In this document: positions 3,580-4,018 of the stretch, in pieces
Layout: every line of letters starts with the position of its first letter
How positions within the stretch are numbered: position 1 is the stretch's first letter
Virus record (IMG/VR): IMGVR_UViG_3300021279_000050
Length of the DNA stretch: 4,018 nt
Reading direction: 5' to 3' (one strand)
DNA from: a virus
Lineage: Duplodnaviria; Heunggongvirae; Uroviricota; Caudoviricetes
Translations under genes and position numbers: made by a program
The notes under the pieces: model-generated
The model's input: the letters and a program-made list of their open reading frames with translations, nothing else
Database searches by the model: none
Told to the model about the DNA's origin: nothing

Positions 3580-3978
3580 TTAAAAACGATATCCTGCGGA
3601 GAACATAAACACCCACGGATCCAGTCGTACCGAGTCTTTTACGGTAGTAACACCAGATTTGTACTTAGCCGTGGTATCGATATCCATGTACCACACTGAC
3701 ATGTTCACCAACCAGTCACGGTTAATCAGATAATCAACCCCCACCTGCCCGGCAGCTCCCCAGGAATCTTTCAGACTGAGATCGGATAGCCCCGCTTCTT
3801 TGCCATGATCGTTAAATCCATTATCAAAGAATGTGGTGTAGTTGATACCTGCACCAACGTAAGGACGGAATTTGCTGCTGGCATCGCCAAAATACCACTG
3901 CGCCATCAGTGTTGGCGGCAGATGATGAACGGTTGCAATATCACCGGTCGCCCGGGTACCGATTTTATGGCGGAACGG
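3580..3978 (-). CDS. ompW: Outer membrane protein W, 3' portion only (about residues 81-212); the 5' part is missing or disrupted by the terminal inverted duplication
   Basis: Minus-strand translation gives PFRHKIGTRATGDIATVHHLPPTLMAQWYFGDASSKFRPYVGAGINYTTFFDNGFNDHGKEAGLSDLSLKDSWGAAGQVGVDYLINRDWLVNMSVWYMDIDTTAKYKSGVTTVKDSVRLDPWVFMFSAGYRF*, which matches E. coli OmpW as I recall it. It ends in the aromatic C-terminal beta-signal typical of outer-membrane proteins. The Met the ORF track uses as a start (3904-3906) is an internal Met of OmpW. Homology stops at nt 3978-3980. Confidence 0.85.
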   Translation of the reverse strand, partial: PFRHKIGTRATGDIATVHHLPPTLMAQWYFGDASSKFRPYVGAGINYTTFFDNGFNDHGKEAGLSDLSLKDSWGAAGQVGVDYLINRDWLVNMSVWYMDIDTTAKYKSGVTTVKDSVRLDPWVFMFSAGYRF

Positions 3979-4018
3979 CGATATTGCAACCGTTCATCAT
4001 CTGCCGCCAACACTGATG
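3904..4018. repeat. Perfect 39-bp inverted repeat (3904-3942 vs 3980-4018) separated by 37 bp, truncated by the window end
   Basis: Reverse complement of 3980-4018 is identical to 3904-3942. The left copy is genuine ompW coding sequence (DIATVHHLPPTLM). The right copy replaces the expected upstream ompW sequence and introduces an in-frame stop at 3994-3996 on the minus strand. Confidence 0.9.

What the first reader, a model, noticed from the sequence alone, without database searches (positions are those of the whole stretch)
3904..4018. Perfect 39-bp inverted duplication of an internal ompW segment at the window end, breaking the ompW frame
3980-4018 is the exact reverse complement of 3904-3942. 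OmpW homology on the minus strand runs cleanly through PFRHKIGTRATG (to nt 3978) and then is replaced by the inverted copy, which creates an in-frame stop. So ompW as represented here lacks its 5' half. A perfect foldback at a sequence end is typical of an assembly or library artifact (chimeric hairpin read at a contig end). If real, it is an inversion or palindromic rearrangement breakpoint that inactivates ompW. OmpW is a phage and colicin receptor in some systems, so loss could be selected.
Basis: seen in the sequence. Interest (0 to 1): 0.45.

Follow-up and report, generated by a model that had tools for sequence, protein, structure and literature searches.

The report
Foldback artefact at ompW sequence end
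The last 38 bases of this window are a snapped-back inverted copy of nearby ompW sequence that no other record supports, so this is almost certainly a sequencing-library chimera and not a real disruption of ompW.

Summary
Window 3980-4018 is the exact reverse complement of 3904-3942, which chance cannot produce, and on the minus strand the ompW frame runs into two stop codons.

The inverted copy is not supported as genomic sequence. JGI metagenome contig Ga0307246_1011718 (4264 nt) matches the window base for base over 1-3980. It has the same first base and the same 1-nt deletion near 48. It then continues with wild-type, full-length ompW (212 aa). None of 5426 complete E. coli genomes covers the junction, although 1654 of them carry this same exonuclease-xis-int-ompW arrangement.

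The breakpoint lies at the base of a natural weak quasi-palindrome in ompW (3942-3952 / 3969-3980). A 3' end at 3980 pairs 6/8, including the terminal G:C, with 3942-3949. Only 0.34% of random breakpoints in the contig pair this well. This is the signature of snap-back self-priming and polymerase fill-in, as in end-repair or MDA-type inverted chimeras. The junction shares at most 5 nt, so a graph mis-join alone cannot have made it.

The setting is an ordinary ompW-integrating lambdoid prophage. Its 28-bp att core (3671-3698) is more than 200 nt away. Without the reads, a real in vivo inverted duplication keeps about a 4% chance.

The parts
68..2113 (+). 3' part of the prophage exonuclease gene (Rv2179c-like 3'-5' exonuclease domain). 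It is cut by the window start and frameshifted by a 1-nt deletion near position 48 relative to E. coli N51.
   Evidence: Pfam PF16473, E = 1.9e-66. The homologous CDS in N51 is 2472 nt. The deletion was found and is also in the JGI contig.
2178..2426 (+). Excisionase gene.
   Evidence: Pfam PF07825 Exc, E = 1.3e-7. Annotated as excisionase in N51 and 2013C-4282.
2404..3534 (+). Lambda-type tyrosine integrase gene (Arm DNA-binding domain plus catalytic domain).
   Evidence: Pfam PF09003, E = 7e-22, and PF00589, E = 1.3e-16.
3541..3575 (-). Three tandem copies of CTCTGCAAAAC between the int stop and the ompW stop. They are candidate arm-type integrase binding sites (inferred).
   Evidence: 3 matches against 0.06 expected. 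One further copy lies at the far prophage end in N51.
3580..3670 (-). Phage-supplied replacement 3' end of ompW (last ~30 codons plus stop), which diverges from native K-12 ompW.
   Evidence: Alignments with K-12 and with the far-end ompW remnant of N51.
3671..3698 (-). 28-bp block CAGTGTGGTACATGGATATCGATACCAC. It is shared by the int-side junction, the far-end junction and the empty K-12 site, so it is the att crossover region.
   Evidence: Window versus N51 is identical over 49-3705 and differs only from 3706 onward.
3699..3980 (-). Genuine bacterial ompW coding sequence (through codon P81, plus 2 nt), identical to the public contig.
   Evidence: Pfam OmpW PF03922, E = 4.6e-59, for 3580-3978.
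3904..3942 (+). Left arm. This is genuine ompW sequence that served as template for the inverted copy.
   Evidence: It is present in wild-type genomes.
3942..3980 (+). Natural weak quasi-palindrome in ompW. CACCGGTCGCC (3942-3952) pairs with GGCGGAACGGCG (3969-3980), with a 16-nt loop. The foldback junction sits at its base.
   Evidence: The MFE fold contains this stem. Pairing is 6/8 at the 3' end, and 3942 is the best return site within 380 nt. The reverse-strand alignment of the junction 70-mer reaches 3969.
3981..4018 (+). Inverted copy, the reverse complement of 3904-3941. It is not genomic and replaces the wild-type TCGCTGCCAGTAATTCC...
   Evidence: It differs from JGI contig L013 at 30 of 38 positions, after 3980 identical bases. 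It is absent from all complete E. coli genomes.

Best explanation
The terminal 38 nt (3981-4018) are an in vitro foldback chimera, not chromosome sequence.

Proposed mechanism (inferred):
1. A DNA fragment from the ompW locus had a single-stranded 3' end at window position 3980.
2. That end snapped back onto a natural short quasi-palindrome in ompW. GAACGGCG-3' (3973-3980) pairs with 3942-3949, and the terminal G3980 pairs with C3942.
3. A polymerase extended it, copying 3941 to 3904 and beyond. The candidates are end repair after shearing or enzymatic fragmentation, or a strand-displacing amplification enzyme.
4. A read from this hairpin-derived molecule was then used to extend the sequence past 3980.

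The real locus is an intact, chimeric ompW next to the int end of an ompW-integrating lambdoid prophage.

Shown: the repeat, its absence from other records, wild-type continuation in the identical public contig, and the microhomology. Inferred: the polymerase step, and the stage at which the chimera entered the sequence.
For: 1. JGI contig 3300028453/Ga0307246_1011718 (4264 nt) has 0 mismatches to the window over 1-3980, including the same first base and the same 1-nt deletion near 48. It then continues with wild-type ompW encoding a full 212-aa protein.
2. 1654 of 5426 complete E. coli genomes align to at least 80% of the window. The best rows all stop at query position 3980. No genome covers at least 80% of a 70-mer spanning the junction.
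3. The junction 27-mer has 0 hits in genome contigs, viral contigs and metagenome contigs. A 21-mer gave one unrelated chance hit.
4. The inverted copy carries the window's own allele (A at 3925, where N51 has G), so it was copied from the adjacent DNA.
5. Microhomology at the junction is 6/8 pairs including the 3'-terminal pair. Only 0.34% of 714,950 random breakpoint/return combinations in the contig reach this, and 3942 is the single best return site within 380 nt upstream of a 3' end at 3980. The stem appears in the MFE fold of the wild-type stretch.
6. Inverted chimeras that prime at short complementary sequences close by are the dominant MDA artefact: 85% are inverted, and over 70% prime at 2-21 nt of complementarity (PMC1855051). 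Chimeric reads at natural imperfect inverted repeats are also a documented sonication and enzymatic-fragmentation library artefact (PMC10908179).
7. Other metagenome scaffolds break, with N gaps, inside this same ompW stretch. Assemblies of mixed E. coli populations are therefore fragile here.
Against: - No reads are available, so coverage of the junction cannot be checked.
- The source of the window is unknown, and the window is not a verbatim slice of the only public contig that shares its first 3980 nt. I cannot say at which step the 38 nt entered.
- The public contig itself is missing from the metagenome contigs and viral contigs collections. The absence of the junction from those two collections therefore carries little weight.
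- The natural hairpin is not unusually stable (z = 0.47).
- The pairing has a mismatch at the second base from the 3' end. A proofreading end-repair polymerase might have removed it, unless the template strand came from a co-resident allele with G at 3943, which would give 5 perfect pairs.
Confidence: 0.9

Rival explanations
1. The 38 nt were introduced after or outside sequencing. Possible routes are a different assembly run or post-processing of the same data, or deliberate or accidental editing of contig Ga0307246_1011718. On this reading no chimeric DNA molecule ever existed.
For: The window equals the public contig exactly over 1-3980, from the same first base, yet differs in its last 38 nt and is 246 nt shorter. 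The 681-aa exonuclease product is on record for only one contig in the 153-billion-gene index. No second public contig with the foldback was found. The mirror ORFs across the junction are not on record.
Against: A junction placed arbitrarily would show the observed microhomology only about 0.3% of the time. The breakpoint falls exactly at the base of a natural quasi-palindrome, which is what a polymerase-driven event predicts. Either way the conclusion is the same: the sequence is not genomic.
Confidence: 0.05
2. A real in vivo rearrangement in a subpopulation of the E. coli strain. An intramolecular template switch at the ompW quasi-palindrome during replication or break repair produced an inverted duplication that truncates ompW, possibly kept by selection against an OmpW-dependent colicin or phage.
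For: In vivo template switching uses the same kind of microhomology at quasi-palindromes (established knowledge of quasi-palindrome mutagenesis in E. coli; the microhomology is). ompW is independently disrupted in some assemblies, for example a nonsense codon in Logan SRR23081316. In a de Bruijn graph a real foldback would also end the contig where the copy re-enters known sequence.
Against: - There are no examples in 5426 complete genomes.
- The identical public contig is wild type.
- In vivo quasi-palindrome events normally copy a few bases and then return to the original template. Here at least 38 nt beyond the stem are copied, with no return visible.
- An unresolved foldback in a circular chromosome would give an inviable palindromic chromosome, so a second unseen breakpoint is required.
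Confidence: 0.04
3. An assembler mis-join without any chimeric read. The graph traversal crossed from one strand to the other at an inverted repeat.
For: The foldback lies at a sequence end, in a region where other metagenome scaffolds also break.
Against: The two joined sequences share only 1 exact base at the junction in the window's own allele, and 5 (CGGCG) if a co-resident allele is assumed. That is far shorter than any assembly k-mer or overlap. The 38 junction-spanning k-mers must have been present in the input.
Confidence: 0.01

Closest known systems
Inverted (foldback) chimeras from library preparation or whole-genome amplification: MDA chimeras (Lasken & Stockwell 2007, PMC1855051) and inverted-repeat chimeric reads from sonication or enzymatic fragmentation plus end repair (PMC10908179).
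   Same: The second segment is the reverse complement of sequence a few tens of nt upstream at the same locus. The junction lies at short complementarity, within a natural imperfect inverted repeat. The structure is not reproducible in independent sequences.
   Different: It is seen here in an assembled sequence, not in a single read. The library method of the source sample is unknown, so the enzyme responsible cannot be named.
Quasi-palindrome-associated template-switch mutagenesis in E. coli (in vivo).
   Same: There is a pre-existing imperfect inverted repeat, and the nascent strand is copied from its own or the opposite strand, starting at the stem.
   Different: In vivo events usually perfect only the stem and then switch back. 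Here the copy runs at least 38 nt past the stem with no return seen, and no natural genome carries it.
PPompW, lambda-like prophages integrated into ompW (Nakamura et al. 2021, PMC8112680).
   Same: The order xis-int is directly next to ompW. The att sequence lies inside the ompW 3' region. The phage supplies a substitute ompW 3' end, so the gene stays intact. The arrangement is present in about 30% of complete E. coli genomes.
   Different: This describes the context only and has nothing to do with the foldback. The paper reports a 121-bp att. Here I delimited a 28-bp perfectly shared core within a longer stretch of about 83% similarity.

Membership tests
Foldback (inverted) chimeric sequencing artefact | The second segment is the exact reverse complement of nearby sequence from the same molecule. 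| tested here: met
   39/39 match. The copy carries the window's own allele, and the loop is 37 nt.
Foldback (inverted) chimeric sequencing artefact | The junction lies at short complementarity or a natural imperfect inverted repeat. | tested here: met
   6/8 pairs including the 3'-terminal pair. The empirical frequency is 0.34%, and 3942 is the best site within 380 nt. The stem is in the MFE fold.
Foldback (inverted) chimeric sequencing artefact | The structure is not reproduced in independent sequences of the same locus. | tested here: met
   The identical public contig is wild type. 0 of 5426 genomes cover the junction.
Foldback (inverted) chimeric sequencing artefact | The junction is supported by only one or a few chimeric fragments, at a depth far below the flanks. 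| not testable with these tools
   No reads or coverage data are available.
In vivo quasi-palindrome template-switch mutation | The change is confined to the imperfect stem, and synthesis returns to the normal template. | tested here: not met
   The copy extends 38 nt beyond the stem to the end of the sequence, and no return is seen.
Hairpin telomere of a linear phage or plasmid (protelomerase type) | A perfect palindrome centred on the end with no unique loop, at a phage telomere site, with a telomere resolvase. | tested here: not met
   A 37-nt non-palindromic loop lies between the arms. Both arms are bacterial ompW coding sequence. The prophage is an integrated lambda type with a tyrosine integrase.
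Invertible DNA switch or terminal inverted repeats of a mobile element | Both inverted-repeat copies are present in natural genomes, flanking a segment. | tested here: not met
   Wild-type genomes have only one copy of the arm at this locus.
ompW-integrating lambdoid prophage (PPompW) | A lambda-type integrase and excisionase lie next to ompW. | tested here: met
ompW-integrating lambdoid prophage (PPompW) | The att sequence is shared between both prophage ends and the empty ompW site. | tested here: met
   The 28-bp core at 3671-3698 is shared with the N51 far end and with K-12. An ompW 3' remnant is annotated at the far end in N51.

The most novel reading that the evidence does not exclude
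The foldback is a real in vivo inverted duplication, seeded at the natural ompW quasi-palindrome, in a minority of cells of one E. coli strain in the sampled community. It knocks out ompW and was captured by the assembler as an alternative path.
Probability: 0.04. Interest if true: 0.3.

Novelty: not a real feature. Interest (0 to 1): 0.05.

Why it matters
The main value is quality control. Taken at face value, the window would be read as a truncated ompW next to a prophage, and possibly as receptor loss under phage or colicin selection. The evidence shows an intact ompW and a foldback chimera at the sequence end.

The case also gives a reusable rule for separating a graph mis-join from a physical chimeric molecule: compare the length of exact sequence shared at the junction with any plausible k-mer or overlap length. 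It shows as well that weak natural quasi-palindromes can seed such ends.

If the in vivo reading were true, it would be one example of quasi-palindrome-seeded inverted duplication inactivating an outer-membrane receptor gene. That would be of modest interest.

Tried and rejected
- **Looking for the window's own source contig.** I looked up the 108-aa ompW ORF. It returned other contigs in which ompW is split by frameshifts, N gaps or a nonsense codon, and none has a foldback. The look-up shows only 10 of the 23 contigs it read, so shorter contigs were not inspected.
- **First look-up of the exonuclease product.** It used the wrong frame. The corrected look-up found the public wild-type contig.
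- **Junction scans.** The 27-mer found nothing in the three contig collections. A relaxed 21-mer found one chance match in a Chloroherpetonaceae MAG with unrelated flanks and nothing in viral contigs.
- **Scan for a 33-mer from the contig start**. It also found nothing. This shows that the public contig itself is not in those two collections, so their silence on the junction is uninformative.
- **Look-ups of the two 35-aa mirror ORFs that cross the junction.** Neither is on record.
- **Literature search for the sample identifiers.** There were no hits, so the sample type and library method remain unknown.
- **Readings rejected.** Integrase-mediated event: the att core is more than 200 nt away. 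Hairpin telomere: the loop is unique and the arms are bacterial coding sequence. Invertible switch or transposon inverted repeats: wild-type genomes have a single arm copy. Regulatory hairpin or terminator: the structure is inside a coding sequence and absent from all other genomes. Pure graph mis-join: there is no shared k-mer.
- **Untested lead.** The 39-nt arm equals one of the k values I recall from a common metagenome assembler's default list. I could not test this and give it no weight.

Full report
**1. The observation**

Window 3980-4018 is the exact reverse complement of 3904-3942, 39 of 39 bases. None of 200 dinucleotide-preserving shuffles gave a second match to the arm, even with three mismatches allowed. 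The repeat extends imperfectly to 46 nt, because 3943-3949 and 3973-3979 are 5/7 complementary. As single-stranded DNA, 3900-4018 folds at -59.2 kcal/mol, z = -16.6.

On the minus strand the translation is ISVGGR**TVAISPFRHKIGTRATGDIATVHHLPPTLMAQWYF...AGYRF*. The stretch 3580-3978 is a clear OmpW C-terminal fragment: Pfam PF03922, E = 4.6e-59, matching profile positions 63-195 of 195. Two details need adjusting. The window retains 132 of 212 codons. At DNA level, wild-type identity runs to 3980, so only 3981-4018 is foreign.

**2. What surrounds it**

The window is the int-proximal end of a lambdoid prophage integrated into ompW:

- the 3' part of an exonuclease gene (68-2113; PF16473);
- an excisionase gene (2178-2426; PF07825);
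- a lambda-type integrase gene (2404-3534; PF09003 plus PF00589);
- ompW on the opposite strand, ending at 3580.

The same arrangement covers at least 80% of the window in 1654 of 5426 complete E. coli genomes. In strain N51 it is the end of a complete lambda-like prophage. The far end of that prophage carries an annotated ompW 3' remnant next to yciE.

I aligned the window, the N51 far end and the empty K-12 site. The shared block is 28 bp, CAGTGTGGTACATGGATATCGATACCAC, at window 3671-3698. To its left, the last ~30 codons of ompW are supplied by the phage (TTAKYKSGVTTVKDSVRLDPW against the native TTANYKLGGAQQHDSVRLDPW). In agreement, the window is identical to N51 from 49 to 3705 and differs only in the bacterial part from 3706 onward.

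This is the known PPompW type of prophage (Nakamura et al. 2021, PMC8112680). The foldback starts more than 200 nt beyond the att core, inside purely bacterial ompW sequence. Site-specific recombination is therefore not involved.

**3. Is the inverted copy genomic?**

- In every listed genome the alignment to the window stops at query position 3980. In those genomes ompW is annotated as full length.
- Wild type continues ...GGAACGGCG|TCGCTGCCAGTAATTCC, while the window continues ...GGAACGGCG|ATATTGCAACCGTTC.
- A 70-mer centred on the junction is covered to at least 80% in none of 5426 genomes.
- The strongest result came from looking up the exact 681-aa exonuclease product of the window. It returned a single public contig, JGI 3300028453 / Ga0307246_1011718, 4264 nt. 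This contig has zero mismatches to the window over 1-3980. It starts at the same base and carries the same 1-nt deletion near position 48. It then continues with wild-type ompW, encoding the complete 212-aa protein.

The only sequence that otherwise equals the window does not contain the inverted copy.

Scans for the junction in the genome, viral and metagenome contig collections were negative. A 33-mer from the contig start is also absent from the viral and metagenome collections. The public contig is therefore not held there, and those two negatives carry little weight.

**4. Mechanism**

The inverted copy carries the window's own allele: A at 3925, where N51 has G. It was therefore copied from the adjacent DNA, not from a paralogue.

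The breakpoint is not arbitrary. The + strand 3' end GAACGGCG (3973-3980) pairs antiparallel with 3942-3949 at 6 of 8 positions, including the terminal G3980:C3942. Extending that primed end copies 3941, 3940 and so on, which gives exactly ATATTGCAACC... as observed.

Across 714,950 random combinations of breakpoint and return site in the public contig, only 0.34% have at least 6/8 pairs with a paired terminus. Among all return sites within 380 nt upstream of a 3' end at 3980, position 3942 is the single best.

The pairing belongs to a natural weak quasi-palindrome, 3942-3952 against 3969-3980. It has 9 pairs and one bulge in this allele, and 10 pairs in alleles with G at 3943. In those common alleles the exact overlap would be CGGCG. 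A strand from a co-resident E. coli could therefore equally have been the template.

This is the pattern described for two kinds of artefact. Inverted MDA chimeras are 85% inverted, mostly intramolecular and nearby, and over 70% prime at 2-21 nt of complementarity (PMC1855051). Chimeric reads also form at natural imperfect inverted repeats during sonication or enzymatic fragmentation followed by end repair (PMC10908179).

The joined sequences share no more than 5 exact bases at the junction. An assembler could not have crossed strands here by itself. The junction must have been present in an input read, or been added after assembly.

**5. Rivals**

- **Introduced without any chimeric molecule (about 0.05).** This could be another assembly run, post-processing or editing of the public contig. 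The exact identity of the first 3980 nt and the lack of a second public contig suggest it. The non-random microhomology argues against it. It leads to the same verdict.
- **Real in vivo template switch or inverted duplication inactivating ompW (about 0.04).** It would use the same quasi-palindrome and would also end a de Bruijn contig. However, no natural genome shows it and the identical contig is wild type. In vivo quasi-palindrome events normally copy only the stem and then return. An unresolved foldback is also incompatible with a circular chromosome.
- **Pure graph mis-join (about 0.01).** The absence of a shared k-mer excludes it.

Hairpin telomere, invertible switch, transposon inverted repeats and regulatory hairpin all fail their defining features (see the membership table).

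**6. Verdict**

The repeat is real in the window, but the inverted copy is not supported as genome sequence. The locus is an ordinary PPompW-type prophage junction with an intact chimeric ompW. The window's last 38 nt are best explained as a snap-back chimeric fragment at the sequence end. Novelty: not a real feature. Interest: low. Read mapping or PCR would settle the remaining few per cent.

Noticed in passing
window 3541-3575 (minus strand); L016 5768-5778: Three tandem copies of CTCTGCAAAAC lie between the int stop codon and the ompW stop codon (3 found, 0.06 expected by chance). One more copy lies about 100 nt from the core at the far prophage end in E. coli N51. The layout resembles lambda arm-type integrase binding sites, with three on the P' arm next to int. 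This fits the integrase's Arm DNA-binding domain.
   Followed up: partly
window 3580-3698: The prophage supplies a divergent replacement for the last ~30 codons of ompW (TTAKYKSGVTTVKDSVRLDPW against the native TTANYKLGGAQQHDSVRLDPW). Lysogens therefore make a chimeric OmpW with an altered C-terminal stretch. The perfectly shared att core is 28 bp (3671-3698).
   Followed up: yes
window ~48 (run of A at 50-51): A 1-nt deletion relative to E. coli N51 (AA instead of AAA) frameshifts the prophage exonuclease gene near the window start. The public JGI contig has it too. It could be a real pseudogenising mutation or a low-coverage error at the contig end.
   Followed up: partly
L005, L007, L011, L012 (ompW region): Four independent metagenome scaffolds have N gaps inside the same ompW stretch (ompW nt ~218-339). 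This is probably because co-resident E. coli alleles, with and without the prophage, tangle the assembly graph here.
   Followed up: partly
L004 (Logan SRR23081316), ompW codon ~85; L003, L006, L008, L010: Other assemblies show ompW split by a nonsense codon (CAT AAA to CAT TAA in L004) or by single-base deletions. Some may be real pseudogenes and others sequencing errors. None is a foldback.
   Followed up: partly
window 3942-3980: ompW carries a natural weak quasi-palindrome, CACCGGTCGCC ... GGCGGAACGGCG. Its stability is not unusual (-7.2 kcal/mol, z = 0.47), and allelic variation at 3943 (A/G) changes the stem by one pair.
   Followed up: yes
L001 5922-6011 / L002 7459-7548 (next to ompW in complete genomes): A 90-nt fragment annotated as a partial YkgJ-family protein lies between ompW and yciC in the lysogens. 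Nakamura et al. mention ykgJ-related attB-like sequences in prophages. I did not examine this here.
   Followed up: no
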